From a virus (taxonomy: Duplodnaviria; Heunggongvirae; Uroviricota; Caudoviricetes): a stretch of 4,420 nucleotides of DNA. Shown here one piece after another: positions 1,065-4,420 of the stretch. The notes beneath the pieces were generated by a model that saw nothing but the letters and a program-made list of their open reading frames with translations, ran no database searches and had not been told where the DNA came from. The stretch lies in IMG/VR virus record IMGVR_UViG_2706794686_000006; one strand, 5' to 3'. Numbering within the stretch: position 1 is the stretch's first letter; each line of letters opens with the position of its first letter. The translations under genes and the position numbers were made by a program.

Positions 1065-1156
1065 TCACAGAGGTCTTTCCTCGTTACCAGTGCCGTCACT
1101 ATGACGGTTAAACAGATGACGATCAGGGCGATTAACATCGCCTTTTGCTGCTTCAT
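1065..1156 (-). CDS. hokD: Hok/Gef-family type I toxin (membrane peptide); only the first 30 codons are visible, the 3' end is in the N-block
   Basis: Minus-strand translation from ATG 1156-1154 gives MKQQKAMLIALIVICLTVIVTALVTRKDLC, a single hydrophobic helix followed by the RKDLC motif typical of Hok proteins. It matches my recollection of the E. coli HokD/RelF N-terminus. Checked codon by codon against the sequence. Confidence 0.8.
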
Positions 1157-1438
1157 AGCCTGCTNNNNNNNNNNNNNNNNNNNNNNNNNNNNNNNNNNNN
1201 NNNNNNNNNNNNNNNNNNNNNNNNNNNNNNNNNNNNNNNNNNNNNNNNNNNNNNNNNNNNNNNNNNNNNNNNNNNNNNNNNNNNNNNNNNNNNNNNNNNN
1301 NNNNNNNNNNNNNNNNNNNNNNNNNNNNNNNNNNNNNNNNNNNNNNNNNNNNNNNNNNNNNNNNNNNNNNNNNNNNNNNNNNNNNNNNNNNNNNNNNNNN
1401 NNNNNNNNNNNNNNNNNNNNNNNNNNNNNNNNNNNNNN

Positions 1439-2083
1439 GATAAGAGGGCGTCCCTGAGATTTGCGGTGTAGATTGGTATCGCGCAGAGAATACACACAGC
1501 CACAATATTCCTGCTGATAGAATTTTTCGCGCTTGCTGATTTCAATCATACGGGACGAGCCGCCCTGCTTGCGCCAGTTATAATCCCAGTACACCATGCC
1601 CGGATAATGCGCGACGGCTCGCCGCCCACAGTCGTTAACCTGCTGCATATTTTTCCAGCGTGAAATGCCCAGTGAACTGCTGATCACACTGAAACCATTT
1701 TCAGCGGCGTACAGCGCTGTCCGCTCAAAACGCATGTCAAAACACATGGTGCAACGGATCCCTCGTTCGGGCTCCCATTCCATTCCTTTGGCTCGTTCAA
1801 ACCAGTTGTCTGTGTCGTAATCAGCATCAATAAACGGCACGCCGTGTTGTTCAGCAAAGCGAATATTCTCATCCTTACGAATTAAATACTCTTTCTGAGG
1901 ATGAATGTTCGGGTTGTAGAAAAAGATGGTGTAGTCGATTCCCGAGGCCTGAAGCGCCTCCATCACCTCACCGGAACATGGAGCACAGCAAGAGTGCAGT
2001 AGTAGTTTGTTTGCCCCGTTTGGGAGCTCCAATTTGGGCCGTTTGAAATCAGCAACTGTCATAAATATGTTTATTGGGGTCAT
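1439..2083 (-). CDS. queH: QueH-like (DUF208) Fe-S protein, epoxyqueuosine reductase homologue; 3' end lies in the masked block
   Basis: Minus-strand ORF from ATG 2083 (alternative ATG 2062). The translation carries the cysteine motifs I associate with QueH/DUF208: [20 protein letters not shown] and YCGCVYS. About 215 codons are visible before the N-block. Neither ATG has a Shine-Dalgarno sequence; the upstream region is AT-rich. Confidence 0.75.
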
Positions 2084-2230
2084 AAAAATATCAAAGAGTG
2101 TAGCATTAGAACGGGGCTATCGGAAACAGATGTGTGACTGCTCCCCGCCCTTTCGGGTGGTCTCCTGATGATTTGAGGGTGCAGAAATCCCTCCGGTTAA
2201 GGATTAAATTTTTAACAGTGCTAAATTTAA

Positions 2231-2644
2231 TTATTCAGTTCTGGATTTTGTCGCCCTGCGTATCCGCGCTTTCGCGTTACGCTCAATCTGTATCAGCTTT
2301 TCTATATTTCTCCGCCTTTCCTGTTCCTCCTGGCGCAATAGCCTTACATCATCTGCCAGTCTGGTTTCTCTTTTTGCCACAGAGAGCATCCAGTCAAACG
2401 GCTCCACAACCGCACCGCAGATTTTACAGCGGACCTGACGCTCTTTTTCGTCAACCCGTACAGAGGCGTGATGGCAATATGGTCTTTCCGATGGCTCATA
2501 AAGAAAATTAACCTGATTACGAGGGTCATCCTCTTTTACCGGAAATAAAACGATATTGCTTAACTCATCTTCTGGTTTTATTTCCATGCTCCTCTCCTTT
2601 GATGCGAATGCCAGCGGTAATTGAAGCCTGATAGCTAATTTCAT
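2231..2644 (-). CDS. zinc-ribbon plus coiled-coil protein of unknown function (start at ATG 2644, or ATG 2587 giving 118 aa)
   Basis: Minus-strand ORF. ATG 2644 abuts the upstream stop (TGAATG) with GGAGG 11 nt upstream. An internal ATG at 2587 is preceded by AAAGGAGAGGAG. The product has PYCHH...CKIC (a C/H ... CxxC ribbon-like pattern) and a charged C-terminal helix (RLLRQEEQERRRNIEKLIQIERNAKARIRR). Confidence 0.6.
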   Translation of the reverse strand: MKLAIRLQLPLAFASKERSMEIKPEDELSNIVLFPVKEDDPRNQVNFLYEPSERPYCHHASVRVDEKERQVRCKICGAVVEPFDWMLSVAKRETRLADDVRLLRQEEQERRRNIEKLIQIERNAKARIRRATKSRTE

Positions 2645-3067
2645 TCACAGTATCGCCTCCTGAAAATTACCCTGATAGAAAGCCAGTACACGCTGCATAG
2701 CTTCGCTCTTCCGGCACTCGCGACAGATTATATTCAGGCGCCTGTCGTAGCGGCGTATTTCTCCGTCAGGTAATGACCAGATAAGGTCCGGATCAACAAC
2801 AACCGGTTTCCTCACCTTTACTCTCGAGAGTTTTTTGCGGGCGCTTTGCCAGTCCTTGCGAGCCTGTTCAGACGGGAATAAGCCGTAGCCAGAATTATAT
2901 ACATCACCACTTGCGACCAGTTCTATGCATAAGCGACCGACAGACGCACGACTGATACCTGTTTCATCTGACAACTGCCGAATCGTGACCCGACCGTCCT
3001 GATGCACGAGTTCCACAATTCGCGTCTTCAGTTCTTCCCGCTGTTCGGGAGTAAAAGGTTTCGCCAT
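2645..3067 (-). CDS. winged-helix/HTH DNA-binding protein, 140 aa
   Basis: Minus-strand ORF with ATG 3067-3065 preceded by AGGAGG (3077-3072); stop TGA at plus 2645-2647. The N-terminal segment TIRQLSDETGISRASVGRLCIELVASGDV looks like a helix-turn-helix recognition unit. It sits 14 nt downstream of the preceding gene's stop. Confidence 0.7.
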   Translation of the reverse strand: MAKPFTPEQREELKTRIVELVHQDGRVTIRQLSDETGISRASVGRLCIELVASGDVYNSGYGLFPSEQARKDWQSARKKLSRVKVRKPVVVDPDLIWSLPDGEIRRYDRRLNIICRECRKSEAMQRVLAFYQGNFQEAIL

Positions 3068-3081
3068 AAATCCTCCTGAAA

Positions 3082-3918
3082 CTACTTAACAACCCTCGAA
3101 TGGCTAACATTCGGACGCCAGCTCTCCCAGTTAAAATTCACCCAGCGNNNNNNNNNNNNNNNNNNNNNNNNNNNNNNNNNNNNNNNNNNNNNNNNNNNNN
3201 NNNNNNNNNNNNNNNNNNNNNNNNNNNNNNNNNNNNNNNNNNNNNNNNNNNNNNNNNNNNNNNNNNNNNNNNNNNNNNNNNNNNNNNNNNNNNNNNNNNN
3301 NNNNNNNNNNNNNNNNNNNNNNNNNNNNNNNNNNNNNNNNNNNNNNNNNNNNNNNNNNNNNNNNNNNNNNNNNNNNNNNNNNNNNNNNNNNNNNNNNNNN
3401 NNNNNNNNNNNNNNNNNNNNNNNNATTCGCAAACGAGCATTTACGGTGCAACGGCTGGATGCCTGAGCGATTCNNNNNNNNNNNNNNNNNNNNNNNNNNN
3501 NNNNNNNNNNNNNNNNNNNNNNNNNNNNNNNNNNNNNNNNNNNNNNNNNNNNNNNNNNNNNNNNNNNNNNNNNNNNNNNNNNNNNNNNNNNNNNNNNNNN
3601 NNNNNNNNNNNNNNNNNNNNNNNNNNNNNNNNNNNNNNNNNNNNNNNNNNNNNNNNNNNNNNNNNNNNNNNNNNNNNNNNNNNNNNNNNNNNNNNNNNNN
3701 NNNNNNNNNNNNNNNNNNNNNNNNNNNNNNNNNNNNGGCGCGAACAGGCCCTGGTATTCATTGGCGATGCTGTGTCGAATCACCTGCTCAGGTGTAAAAC
3801 CCTGCTGACGGAATTTTTCCAGTTCCCGTATCGCCCCGTTAGCGCCCTGCTCCGTTCGAATCGGTTTTCGCAATGCCTGTCTGAACCGGACCCACTCATG
3901 CCAGAGTGTTTCCGGCAA
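3082..3918 (-). CDS. C-terminal portion of a replication-initiator/replisome-organiser-like protein; middle is N-masked; probably not an independent gene
   Basis: The visible 60 codons (3918 to 3739) read LPETLWHEWVRFRQALRKPIRTEQGANGAIRELEKFRQQGFTPEQVIRHSIANEYQGLFA. From memory this resembles the conserved C-terminal domain of phage replication proteins (W..F...R...P.T......L..F...G......V..SI.N.W.GLF). The nominal start is TTG with no SD, and the frame is open upstream to 3984. Stop TAG is at plus 3082-3084. Continuity across the two N-blocks cannot be verified. Confidence 0.45.
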   Translation of the reverse strand: MPETLWHEWVRFRQALRKPIRTEQGANGAIRELEKFRQQGFTPEQVIRHSIANEYQGLFAXXXXXXXXXXXXXXXXXXXXXXXXXXXXXXXXXXXXXXXXXXXXXXXXXXXXXXXXXXXXXXXXXXXXXXXXXXXXXXXXXXXXXXXXXIAQASSRCTVNARLRXXXXXXXXXXXXXXXXXXXXXXXXXXXXXXXXXXXXXXXXXXXXXXXXXXXXXXXXXXXXXXXXXXXXXXXXXXXXXXXXXXXXXXXXXXXXXRWVNFNWESWRPNVSHSRVVK

Positions 3919-3950
3919 CCAATCGGGCAGCTCAATAGCCTCCGGCTCGA

Positions 3951-3957
3951 ATTTTTT
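3951..3957 (-). other. A_AAA_AAU heptamer in frame C, at the frame C to frame B break (A6 run)
   Basis: The minus strand reads cta aaa aat tcg in frame C (L K N S). Frame B, at -1 relative to it, reads tct aaa aaa ttc gag and continues into the conserved C-terminal domain. Confidence 0.4.
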
Positions 3958-3997
3958 AGACGCTCGTTTTTGGCGAGGGGGAGATCAGTATTTAGAT

Positions 3998-4015
3998 CTT
4001 CCTCTTCCTCTTCCT
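3998..4015. repeat. perfect tandem hexamer (CTTCCT)x3; on the minus strand (AGGAAG)x3
   Basis: Read directly: cttcct cttcct cttcct at 3998-4015. In minus frame C it encodes EEEEEE; on the plus strand it produces the poly-Ser tail of the spurious 3100..4032 ORF. Confidence 0.9.
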
Positions 4016-4018
4016 CTG

Positions 4019-4060
4019 GTAACGCTTTTTGATCCGTTTGTGTAACGCTGGCAGCGTTAC
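4019..4060. repeat. cluster of GTAACGCT motifs including a 19-bp perfect palindrome (iteron- or operator-like)
   Basis: GTAACGCT occurs at 4019-4026 and 4042-4049, and its reverse complement AGCGTTAC at 4053-4060. The span 4042-4060 (gtaacgctg g cagcgttac) is a perfect inverted repeat with 9-bp arms. Degenerate copies lie at 4087-4091 (GTTAC) and 4102-4106 (GTAAC). The direct copies are 23 bp apart. Confidence 0.5.
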
Positions 4061-4070
4061 CTTTTCGTTT
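4042..4070 (+). terminator. candidate plus-strand intrinsic terminator (8-bp stem, 3-nt loop, then CTTTTCGTTT)
   Basis: The palindrome 4042-4060 can fold as an 8-bp stem with loop GGC in plus-strand RNA and is followed by a T-rich tract at 4061-4070. The minus-strand version is not followed by U residues. No convincing promoter was found upstream, so this is tentative. Confidence 0.3.
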
Positions 4071-4087
4071 CAGTTCGCGTATTTTTG

Positions 4088-4351
4088 TTACTCGCTCGTT
4101 TGTAACCGCCCGTTTTTTTTAGAGCTTTTTCCGTTATGACGTTCAAAGTTAGGTAGAGAAAGCCCTCCGTCATTTTCGACCAGCCATCCAACCTGAATTA
4201 ACGCATCAGCAAAACCAGACATAAAAGTGATGCGATCTATTGCACTTTTTGTAACGCCGCGAGCGTTACAATCTGCATTACCGTCTATCATTTGTTGATC
4301 CGCCCATGCCCAGAAGCGAATAACCTGAGGTAGCCTGAGTTTAACGGACAC
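4088..4351 (-). CDS. 87-codon ORF, possibly the N-terminal DNA-binding segment of the same replication-initiator-like gene
   Basis: Minus-strand ORF starting at GTG 4351, with AGGAAGGA immediately upstream at poor spacing; an internal ATG lies at 4291. It ends at TAA (plus 4088-4090). The translation (FWAWADQQMIDGN...ADALIQVGWLVENDGGLSLPNFERHNGKSSKK) loosely resembles N-terminal domains of phage replication initiators; this is a weak call made from memory. Confidence 0.45.
   Translation of the reverse strand: MSVKLRLPQVIRFWAWADQQMIDGNADCNARGVTKSAIDRITFMSGFADALIQVGWLVENDGGLSLPNFERHNGKSSKKNGRLQTSE
4112..4118 (-). other. A_AAA_AAC heptamer in the zero frame of the 87-codon ORF, at the frame A to frame C break (within an A8 run)
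   Basis: The minus strand reads tct aaa aaa aac ggg in the ORF frame (S K K N G). The -1 frame entered from this heptamer is open for 112 codons (4118 to 3783). Confidence 0.4.
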
Positions 4352-4389
4352 TCCTTCCTGAAATAGAATGGCATCAGAAGGAGCTAATA

Positions 4390-4420
4390 ATGAGCAGAAA
4401 AACCCAACGTTACTCTAAAG
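4390..4420 (+). CDS. 5' end of a divergently oriented gene (MSRKTQRYSK...), runs off the window
   Basis: ATG at 4390 is preceded by GAAGGAG (4377-4383) with a 6-nt spacer, a strong translation-initiation context. Only 10 codons are visible, so identity is unknown. Confidence 0.3.
   Translation, partial: MSRKTQRYSK

What the first reader, a model, noticed from the sequence alone, without database searches (positions are those of the whole stretch)
3961..4120. Iteron-like repeat cluster and AT-rich tract inside the replication-gene linker: candidate replication origin
Between the N-terminal and C-terminal coding segments lie two direct GTAACGCT copies 23 bp apart, an inverted copy forming a 19-bp perfect palindrome, degenerate GTTAC/GTAAC half-sites, a 9-bp direct repeat CGCTCGTTT at 3961-3969 and 4093-4101, and T-rich runs at 4061-4130. 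In phage lambda the origin (iterons plus an AT-rich region) lies inside the O gene, so an analogous origin embedded in the initiator linker is plausible here.
Basis: partly seen in the sequence, partly recalled or inferred. Interest (0 to 1): 0.5.

Follow-up and report, generated by a model that had tools for sequence, protein, structure and literature searches.

The report
Relic phage replication origin in initiator pseudogene
The repeats are the likely binding sites of a phage replication origin that sits inside the phage's own replication-initiator gene, as in phage lambda; the same sites recur in relatives across several bacterial phyla, but in this window the gene is broken, so the origin is probably dead.

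Summary
The repeats are real and far beyond chance.

The "linker" is not non-coding. The window holds a decayed initiator gene of a Rac-like prophage on the minus strand. IS600 cuts its 5' end at about 4322. It also has a +2 bp slip (4113-4120) and a 10-bp deletion (about 3982/3983). Intact homologues encode 262 aa.

In 80 diverse homologous loci (31-98% protein identity, several phyla) the motif sits at the same two places in the gene:
- It is read in two reading frames, with strongly biased synonymous codons.
- It is followed within 1-2 nt by a polypurine tract (window 3997-4017).
- Lineages with a different half-site sequence change both clusters together, and also change residues in a basic helix of the protein.
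- The next gene encodes a DnaC-like loader, a lambda-P-like protein or DnaB.

Best reading: a lambda-style origin embedded in its initiator gene, from an initiator family with no Pfam model and a different layout. Here it is a relic. The 9-bp repeat and the "AT-rich tract" are not supported. Nothing was tested experimentally.

The parts
3737..4325 (-). Visible remnant of the replication-initiator gene (annotated in relatives as 'YdaU family' or 'DNA replication protein O'). It is a pseudogene and its 3' end is hidden in the N-masked run.
   Evidence: It aligns at 92-98% to intact 789-nt genes: L001 4913-5701, Rac MN652886 and phage 666R9. PHROG 2509 'replication initiation protein', E=1e-89.
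4322..4420 (+). Left end of IS600, including the start of its orfA. The insertion removes the first ~100 nt of the initiator gene and the upstream site C.
   Evidence: 100% matches to annotated IS600/IS3-family transposase ends in many E. coli genomes (H11-H24). Homology to the initiator gene stops at about 4326.
4251..4269 (.). Site A: the palindrome GTAACGCCGCGAGCGTTAC, inside the N-terminal-domain coding sequence (it encodes C-N-A-R-G-V-T).
   Evidence: Present at gene nt 149-161 in 73 of 80 diverse loci. Synonymous codons are fixed: Gly GGT 63/64 against 23% background, Val GTT 70/73 against 38%.
4042..4060 (.). Site B: the perfect 19-bp palindrome GTAACGCTGGCAGCGTTAC in the linker-coding region. 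It is the core of the iteron cluster.
   Evidence: Present at gene nt 338-394 in 73 of 80 loci. Among the 60 loci with a close match it is read in two frames: xNAxxVT in 45 and VTxxAL in 15.
4019..4026 (.). Third half-site of cluster B (AGCGTTAC in gene sense, encoding K-A-L-P), 23 bp from the right arm of site B and 1 nt from the polypurine tract.
   Evidence: D12. A CGTTAC directly before CAGAG/CTAGAG is conserved in most loci. The gap from the last half-site to the tract is 1-2 nt in 47 of the 71 loci with a measurable gap.
3997..4017 (-). Polypurine tract AGAGGAAGAGGAAGAGGAAGA (encodes EEEEEED). It is the enteric version of the conserved (GAAGA)n tract that abuts the last half-site, and the candidate unwinding, R-loop or loading element.
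   Evidence: TRF array 3997-4017. Conserved across phyla. All 94 Arg codons in the tract are AGA, against 37 of 740 elsewhere in the genes. The least stable 30-mer of the region, 3984-4013, overlaps it.
4061..4112 (-). Coding sequence for the conserved basic helix (KKRAVTNERVTKIRELKRK). This is why the + strand is T-rich here. It includes GTTAC 4087 and GTAAC 4102.
   Evidence: Residues K104, R106 and R112 are invariant. AF2 predicts a helix at 102-123. The GTTAC/GTAAC pair is not conserved outside close relatives.
4113..4120 (.). T8 run (A8 in gene sense): a +2 bp slippage that causes the first frameshift.
   Evidence: The three intact homologues aligned have A6 here. The frame changes are shown.
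3976..3983 (.). Junction of a 10-bp deletion between direct TCCCCCT repeats. It causes the second frameshift.
   Evidence: Alignment A1, columns 448-457.
3082..3147 (-). Visible 3' end of the downstream DnaC/IstB-like helicase-loader gene (ydaV). The rest is N-masked.
   Evidence: Window 1439-3147 is 99.8% identical to L001 2517-4225. L001 4160-4906 is annotated ydaV and matches IstB_IS21 and the DnaA ATPase domain.

Best explanation
The region is the remnant of a phage replication origin that lies inside the gene of its own initiator protein, as ori-lambda lies inside gene O.

What is shown by sequence comparison:
- In intact relatives the initiator has a small N-terminal domain with a weak winged-helix resemblance, a basic helix, a low-complexity linker and an exchangeable C-terminal domain.
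- Its gene carries arrays of GTAACGC/GCGTTAC half-sites in two clusters. Site A lies in the N-domain coding part. Site B lies about 190-230 bp downstream in the linker-coding part. Enteric relatives have a third site just upstream of the start codon.
- Cluster B is followed within 1-2 nt by a polypurine tract.

What is inferred:
- Initiator molecules bind the half-sites, as dimers on the 19-bp palindromes and side by side on half-sites spaced about 11-12 bp (one helical turn).
- Clusters A, B and C may be brought together into a wrapped or looped complex.
- The duplex opens at or next to the polypurine tract. Transcription running through the gene may help, because purine-rich RNA favours R-loops.
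- The variable C-terminal domain hands the host helicase over through the loader or helicase encoded by the next gene.

In this window the system is dead or orphaned. IS600 has removed the gene's 5' end and the upstream site, and two frameshifts break the reading frame. The surviving sites could fire only if a matching initiator were supplied in trans.
For: 1. The motif is far beyond chance in the window.
2. In 80 loci from Enterobacterales, Pseudomonas, Burkholderiales, Planctomycetota and Verrucomicrobiota (31-98% protein identity), the palindrome sits at the same two gene positions in 73 loci each.
3. Half-site 7-mers occur at 7.65 per kb within -100..+450 of the gene, against 0.08 per kb in the flanks. 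They form three sharp positional peaks.
4. The constraint acts on the DNA. Site B is read in two frames. Synonymous codons at site A are nearly fixed. All Arg codons in the polypurine tract are AGA.
5. Both clusters change together. L077 has GTTGCGC/GCGCAAC at both; L080 has GTCACG/CGTGAC at both (in L073 only site A is a full GTCACGC palindrome and site B keeps a single half-site); L083 has GTAGACG/CGTCTAC at both. Phages epsilon15, phiPSA1 and RPZH6 have GTCCGCA/TGCGGAC at both. The same CCAGAGAAGAGAAG tract follows in each case.
6. The protein co-varies with the site. The basic-helix motif T-x-x-R-V holds in the GTAACG class (T 69 of 73, V 72 of 73) and is lost in all 7 loci that use other half-sites.
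7. Tandem direct half-sites are spaced 11-12 bp.
9. Among the loci checked, the next gene is a DnaC/IstB-like loader, a lambda-P-like protein or DnaB in most.
10. K-12 Rac YdaU shares the C-domain but has a DUF1376 N-domain and different linker repeats (TGTTCAAACA) at the equivalent place.
11. Lambda precedent: the origin lies in the middle of gene O, and a 19-bp imperfect inverted repeat is the minimal O-binding site (PMC7466680).
12. Decay in the window.
Against: - There is no experimental evidence of binding or origin activity for this family in the papers I could search.
- There is no clear AT-rich unwinding element: 40-bp AT content peaks at 62%.
- There are no DnaA boxes in the region.
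- The layout differs from the lambda origin's tandem iterons. Two or three clusters about 200 bp apart would also suit an autoregulatory looping operator.
- The variant half-site classes represent only about 4-5 independent lineages, so the covariation statistics are not independent samples.
- (GAAGA)n encodes (EEKRR)n in every frame, so the case for DNA-level constraint on the tract rests on codon bias alone.
Confidence: 0.7

Rival explanations
1. The sites are autoregulatory operators rather than origin sites. The initiator, or another phage regulator, binds clusters C, A and B and loops the DNA to repress transcription or translation of the replication operon.
For: Enteric relatives have a site 31-43 bp upstream of the start codon. 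The clusters are about 190-230 bp apart, a spacing that suits looping. There is no strong AT-rich unwinding element.
Against: Most non-enteric loci have no upstream site. Operators deep inside coding sequence are unusual. The invariant polypurine tract next to cluster B and the tandem half-sites at one-turn spacing are typical of origins. Initiators often do both jobs, so this reading is not exclusive.
Confidence: 0.12
2. The repeats reflect protein-level constraint (a repeated N-A-x-x-V-T peptide and an acidic/basic linker) or chance, with no function at the DNA level.
For: N55, A56, V59 and T60 are nearly invariant in the protein alignment. (GAAGA)n gives the same EEKRR peptide in any frame.
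Against: Site B is read in two frames that give different peptides. Synonymous positions are fixed: GGT 63/64, GTT 70/73, and AGA 94/94 in the tract. A copy lies in intergenic DNA upstream of the gene. Both arms and both clusters change together in variant lineages. Chance expectation is 0.01.
Confidence: 0.03
3. The palindromes act as RNA or DNA hairpins, for example an antisense-strand terminator, an RNase site in the mRNA or a cruciform, rather than as protein-binding sites.
For: Site B followed by CTTTTCGTTT scores as a terminator-like site on the + strand. The arm changes in variant lineages keep complementarity.
Against: One terminator-like hit against 0.7 expected is not significant. 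Tandem direct half-sites and the extra lone half-sites cannot pair. The frequent GCGTTAG variant is not compensated on the other arm. The sequence itself is conserved across phyla, not just the pairing. There is no Rfam match.
Confidence: 0.05
4. The conserved polypurine tract and adjacent sites are module-boundary sequences, kept because they promote recombination between phages that swap C-terminal domains.
For: The tract lies exactly where the conserved N-module meets highly variable C-terminal domains (DnaT-like, YdaU C-domain, DUF1627 and others). The K-12 and window-type genes become homologous just downstream, at GATCTAAA.
Against: This does not explain the half-site arrays, their covariation with the protein, or site A. 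A recombination junction next to an origin is expected anyway, so this is at most an added effect.
Confidence: 0.1

Closest known systems
ori-lambda inside gene O of phage lambda and the Stx phages
   Same: The origin lies in the middle of the initiator gene, between an N-terminal DNA-binding part and a C-terminal part that recruits the helicase loader. The binding sites are 19-bp units with internal dyad symmetry. A strand-biased, easily opened stretch lies next to the last site. The loader gene follows directly (PMC7466680).
   Different: The initiator has no detectable similarity to lambda O or to any Pfam family. The sites form two or three clusters about 200 bp apart, made of direct and inverted 7-bp half-sites, rather than four to six tandem iterons. 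The adjacent element is a polypurine tract ((GAGGAA)n here, (GAAGA)n in most relatives) of ordinary AT content, not a roughly 40-bp AT-rich tract.
Rac prophage of E. coli K-12 (ydaU-ydaV) and its origin oriJ
   Same: The prophage type and gene order are the same: ydaT, then the initiator, then ydaV (DnaC-like). The C-terminal domain of the initiator is nearly identical (97% DNA identity over 143 nt). Rac is reported to have an active origin, oriJ (PMC3945230).
   Different: K-12 YdaU has a DUF1376 N-terminal domain and TGTTCAAACA repeats in its linker, not GTAACGC. I could not read the oriJ papers, so the exact position of oriJ is unverified.
Iteron-type plasmid origins (winged-helix Rep proteins)
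   Same: A sequence-specific initiator, possibly winged-helix-like (the fold match is weak), with repeated cognate sites at roughly one-turn spacing. One weak fold hit is a plasmid initiator, 4pta.
   Different: There are no DnaA boxes. The sites are embedded in the coding sequence. The family is almost exclusively in phages and prophages, with only 2 plasmid records.
DnaA boxes followed by DnaA-trios in bacterial oriC (an analogy from my own knowledge)
   Same: Double-strand binding sites are followed immediately by a short-period repeat on one strand, where opening would start.
   Different: The period is 5-6 nt and purine-only. No evidence of single-strand binding is available here. This is an analogy only.

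Membership tests
Lambda-type origin embedded in the initiator gene | Repeats lie inside the initiator gene, between the N-terminal and C-terminal domains | tested here: met
   Cluster B lies at codons ~113-136 of the intact 262-aa gene, between the modelled N-domain plus basic helix and the variable C-domain.
Lambda-type origin embedded in the initiator gene | Several initiator-binding repeats of about 19 bp with internal dyad symmetry | tested here: met
   Two 19-bp palindromes plus an extra half-site in the window. Intact enteric relatives have three palindromes. Other relatives have arrays of 3-6 half-sites. Binding itself was not tested.
Lambda-type origin embedded in the initiator gene | An AT-rich unwinding tract next to the repeats | tested here: not met
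   40-bp AT content is 62% at most. The conserved neighbour is a polypurine tract of about 48% AT.
Lambda-type origin embedded in the initiator gene | The initiator is homologous to lambda O (Pfam Phage_rep_O) | tested here: not met
   No Pfam family matched, even at E of 10 or less, for the N-domain.
Lambda-type origin embedded in the initiator gene | The initiator binds the repeats and the fragment replicates when the initiator is supplied | not testable with these tools
   Only indirect evidence: covariation between the half-site sequence and the protein's basic helix.
Lambda-type origin embedded in the initiator gene | A helicase-loader or helicase gene lies immediately downstream | tested here: met
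   ydaV (IstB/DnaC-like) in L001-L003; lambda-P-like, DnaC-like or DnaB in most of the distant loci checked.
YdaU / DUF1376 family (K-12 Rac YdaU) | A DUF1376 (PF07120) N-terminal domain | tested here: not met
   K-12 YdaU matches DUF1376 at E=2.7e-26. The window-type protein has no match. Only the C-terminal domain is shared.
PHROG 2509 'replication initiation protein' | A full-length profile match | tested here: met
   E=1.2e-89 over residues 1-262. The annotation rests on homology and gene context, not on experiment.
Functional origin in this genome | An intact cognate initiator gene in cis and a complete set of sites | tested here: not met
   IS600 truncates the gene and removes site C, and there are two frameshifts. 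Whether another copy in the genome supplies the initiator in trans could not be tested.

The most novel reading that the evidence does not exclude
This relic belongs to a large family of phage replication initiators with no Pfam model: about 4,000 clusters at 50% identity with E of 1e-10 or better. The family spans Proteobacteria, Planctomycetota and Verrucomicrobiota.

Its origin is written into its own coding sequence as two co-evolving half-site arrays plus a near-invariant (GAAGA)n polypurine tract that abuts the last half-site. That tract would be a new kind of origin-opening element, acting through single-strand capture, an R-loop formed by the purine-rich transcript, or helicase loading, in place of the classical AT-rich unwinding element.
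Probability: 0.4. Interest if true: 0.65.

Novelty: new variant of a known kind. Interest (0 to 1): 0.5.

Why it matters
If correct, this gives a sequence rule for locating replication origins in thousands of prophages and phages, including epsilon15-like, Xanthomonas, Pseudomonas and Ralstonia phages. The rule is the half-site arrays plus the adjacent polypurine tract.

It would also:
- define an initiator domain that has no Pfam model, and point to its likely recognition helix;
- offer a natural series of matched initiator/site specificities (GTAACGC, GTCACG, GTTGCGC, GTAGACG, GTCCGCA) for studying how origin specificity evolves while both partners are encoded in the same DNA;
- raise a testable question about how an origin opens without an AT-rich element.

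For this particular genome it matters little. The copy is a decayed remnant in a prophage disrupted by an IS element.

Tried and rejected
- **Literature.** Searches for oriJ, YdaU, DUF1376, epsilon15 origin and the motif itself found no description of this origin. The bare term 'oriJ' mostly hit an author name. The key oriJ paper (Potrykus 2000) is not held.
- **Other elements.** Rfam found nothing. The promoter/terminator scan gave chance-level hits only. No DnaA box lies in the region.
- **AT-rich unwinding tract.** No window exceeds 62% AT.
I rejected these as elements because they are not conserved.
- **Reading-frame variation as proof for the polypurine tract.** I withdrew this argument because (GAAGA)n encodes the same peptide in all frames. 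Codon bias carries the argument instead.
- **N-masked runs.** I tried to infer deletions in ydaV from their lengths. The run lengths disagree with the homologues in both directions, so no inference is possible.

Full report
**What the window is.** All relevant genes lie on the minus strand. Window 1439-3147 is 99.8% identical to a Rac-like prophage of E. coli FDAARGOS_944 (L001). That prophage has the gene order ydaT-like, initiator, ydaV (DnaC-like), DUF977, small protein, QueH, hok. Window 3737-4326 matches the initiator gene at 97.8% (H1). It matches 'Escherichia phage Rac' MN652886 and phage vB_EcoS-666R9 at 92%. From about 4322 onward the window is the end of IS600 (H11-H24). IS600 is abundant in Shigella (my own knowledge), and the closest protein clusters are from Shigella, so that is the likely source.

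**The 'linker' is an artefact of gene decay.** The three intact homologues aligned carry a single 789-nt gene of 262 aa. Relative to them the window has three defects:
- It has lost about the first 100 nt and the upstream region to IS600.
- It carries a +2 bp expansion of an A6 run (T8 at 4113-4120 on the + strand).
- It carries a 10-bp deletion between TCCCCCT repeats, near 3982/3983.

The three-frame translations show how the frames join. The stretch 3961-4120 is therefore coding sequence of the ancestral gene...KKRAVTNERVTKIRELKRKGNAASVTQTDQKALPEEEEEEDLNTDLPLNPPRQKRASKK...

**The observation.** All listed repeats are present.
Expectation is 0.01.
- The 7-mer occurs 6 times against 0.41 expected.
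- The 9-bp repeat CGCTCGTTT is about what chance gives in a region of this size, and it is not conserved.
- The T-rich stretch 4061-4130 is 57-62% AT. It encodes a conserved Lys/Arg-rich helix.

**Close relatives.** In intact Rac-type genes a third identical palindrome lies 14-32 bp upstream of the ATG (L001 5715-5733). The three sites are spaced 207 and 192 bp apart. The window has lost this site.

**Distant relatives.**
- The N-terminal 144 aa find homologues with many different C-terminal domains: DnaT-like, DUF1627, the YdaU C-domain and others.
- A full scan finds 6,709 50%-identity cluster representatives at E of 1e-3 or better, and 4,074 at 1e-10 or better.
- No Pfam family matches the domain.
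- 59 phage records carry it, including epsilon15, CP2, Xylella/Xanthomonas, Pseudomonas and Ralstonia phages. Only two plasmid records do.

I fetched 80 genome loci spanning Enterobacterales, Pseudomonas, Burkholderiales, Planctomycetota and Verrucomicrobiota, at 31-98% protein identity. Results:
- In 73 of the 80 the palindrome (2 mismatches or fewer) lies at gene nt ~149-161, and in 73 of the 80 at nt ~338-394.
- Half-site 7-mers occur at 7.65 per kb within -100..+450 of the gene start, against 0.08 per kb in the flanks.
- They form sharp peaks at -50..0, 100-200 and 300-450, with almost nothing else within 1 kb upstream or 1.5 kb downstream of the gene start.

**The constraint acts on the DNA.**
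- Among the 60 loci with a site-B match of one mismatch or fewer, 45 read it as x-N-A-x-x-V-T and 15 read it in another frame as V-T-x-x-A-L.
- At site A the synonymous positions are nearly fixed. Gly is GGT in 63 of 64 (background 23%), Val is GTT in 70 of 73 (38%), Ala is GCT in 56 of 70 (23%) and Asn is AAC in 72 of 72 (65%). The genes range from 43% to 62% GC.
- In the AlphaFold model site A encodes a lower-confidence loop at residues 48-60. A loop is a place where the protein can tolerate what the DNA dictates.

**Anatomy of cluster B.** Across the family it consists of 1-4 direct GTAACG half-sites 11-12 bp apart, then one or two inverted CGTTAC half-sites. In 47 of the 71 loci with a measurable gap, 1-2 nt later comes a polypurine tract: CCAGAGAAGAGAAGAGAAGAG or CCTAGAGAAGAGAAG. 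In enteric phages the tract is CCAGAGGAAGAGGAAGAGGAAGA, which is window 3997-4017 on the minus strand. Because (GAAGA)n encodes (EEKRR)n in every frame, frame variation proves nothing here. Codon use does: all 94 Arg codons in the tract are AGA, against 37 of 740 elsewhere in the same genes.

**Covariation.** Lineages with a different half-site change both clusters together:
- L077 has GTTGCGC/GCGCAAC at A and at B.
- L080 has GTCACG/CGTGAC at both. In L073 site A is a full GTCACGC palindrome, but site B keeps only one half-site.
- L083 has GTAGACG/CGTCTAC at both.
- Epsilon15, phiPSA1 and Ralstonia phage RPZH6 have GTCCGCA/TGCGGAC at nt ~54-85 and ~333-370.

In every case the cluster is again followed by CCAGAGAAGAGAAG. 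The protein changes with the site. In the basic helix after the invariant ERHNG, the motif R-A-L-T-x-x-R-V holds in the GTAACG class (T in 69 of 73, V in 72 of 73), and T and V are replaced in all 7 loci with other half-sites. These variants represent perhaps 4-5 independent lineages, so this is suggestive rather than statistical proof.

**The protein and its neighbours.**
- PHROG 2509 'replication initiation protein' matches at E=1e-89.
- The AlphaFold model is confident for residues ~10-100. It shows helices 16-25, 29-47, 61-68 and 73-80, a beta-hairpin at 84-91 and a long basic helix at 102-123. The rest is disordered.
- Among the loci checked, the next gene is a DnaC/IstB-like loader, a lambda-P-like protein (PF06992) or a DnaB helicase in most.
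- K-12 Rac YdaU shares the C-terminal domain, but it has a DUF1376 N-domain and, at the equivalent linker position, three copies of TGTTCAAACA. A different DNA-binding module therefore comes with different repeats at the same place. Rac is reported to have an active origin, oriJ (PMC3945230). I could not verify its exact coordinates.

**Interpretation.** The simplest account is a lambda-style arrangement. In lambdoid phages the origin lies in the middle of gene O. It consists of O-binding iterons plus an adjacent tract where opening occurs, and the minimal O site is a 19-bp imperfect inverted repeat (PMC7466680). Here the initiator is unrelated in sequence, the sites are split into two or three clusters about 200 bp apart, and the neighbouring element is a polypurine tract rather than an AT-rich tract. 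The following steps are inference:
- Dimers bind the palindromes, and monomers bind at one-turn spacing.
- The clusters are looped or wrapped together.
- The duplex opens at the polypurine tract, possibly helped by an R-loop from the purine-rich transcript.
- The C-terminal domain delivers the helicase.

Rival readings are weighed in their own section: autoregulatory operators, hairpins, protein-level constraint and recombination boundary sequences. Protein-level constraint and chance are effectively excluded. Autoregulation may well coexist with origin function.

**In this window.** The initiator gene is a pseudogene and the upstream site is gone. What remains is site A (4251-4269), site B (4042-4060), the third half-site (4019-4026) and the polypurine tract (3997-4017). 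This is a relic that could act only with an initiator supplied in trans.

**Verdict.** The kind of system is known. This version appears undescribed in the literature I could search, and it has an unusual, deeply conserved layout.

Noticed in passing
window 4322-4420: The left end of IS600, with the start of orfA (ATGAGCAGAAAAACC... at about 4390), is inserted into the initiator gene.
   Followed up: partly
window N-runs 801-1064, 1165-1438, 3148-3424, 3474-3736: The masked runs do not match the length of the corresponding DNA in close homologues: +20, +13, -179 and -7 nt relative to L001. I cannot tell whether ydaV carries a real deletion or the masks do not preserve length.
   Followed up: partly
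L008 4312-4383 (E. coli K-12-type Rac ydaU): K-12 YdaU (DUF1376 N-domain) has three copies of TGTTCAAACA/TGTTTGAACA in its linker-coding region, followed by an A-rich stretch. This is a candidate for the sequence-level position of oriJ.
   Followed up: partly
L171 2554-2585 and 2833-2900 (phage epsilon15); the same in L172 and L174: The initiator genes of epsilon15, phiPSA1 and Ralstonia phage RPZH6 carry GTCCGCA/TGCGGAC half-site arrays at two places in the gene. The second array abuts CCAGAGAAGAGAAGAGAAGAG. This is a predicted origin for these phages.
   Followed up: partly
window 1440-2083 (-): An epoxyqueuosine reductase QueH homologue (annotated as such in L001) is carried in the early region of the prophage. 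It is a tRNA-modification gene in a phage context.
   Followed up: no
window 1065-1164 (-): The visible fragment encodes a Hok-type toxin (MKQQKAMLIALIVICLTVIVTALVTRKDLC...). It corresponds to the annotated hokD in L001.
   Followed up: no
window 2231-3067 (-): Two small genes lie downstream of ydaV. One is a DUF977 winged-helix protein (2645-3067). The other is a 137-aa protein with a weak TFIIB-type zinc-ribbon match (2231-2644). Neither co-occurs with the initiator family outside the enterics, so they are unlikely to be the factor that binds the sites.
   Followed up: partly
window 3983-4035: Three GATC (Dam) sites lie within about 50 bp around the polypurine tract: GATC at 3983, 3996 and 4032. 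K-12 ydaU has a similar GATCTAAA...GATC pair. This may be relevant to SeqA/Dam control of the origin, or it may mark the module junction.
   Followed up: no
window 4042-4070 (+): Site B followed by CTTTTCGTTT scores as an intrinsic-terminator-like site on the strand antisense to the gene. The scan gave one hit against 0.7 expected, so it is not significant.
   Followed up: yes
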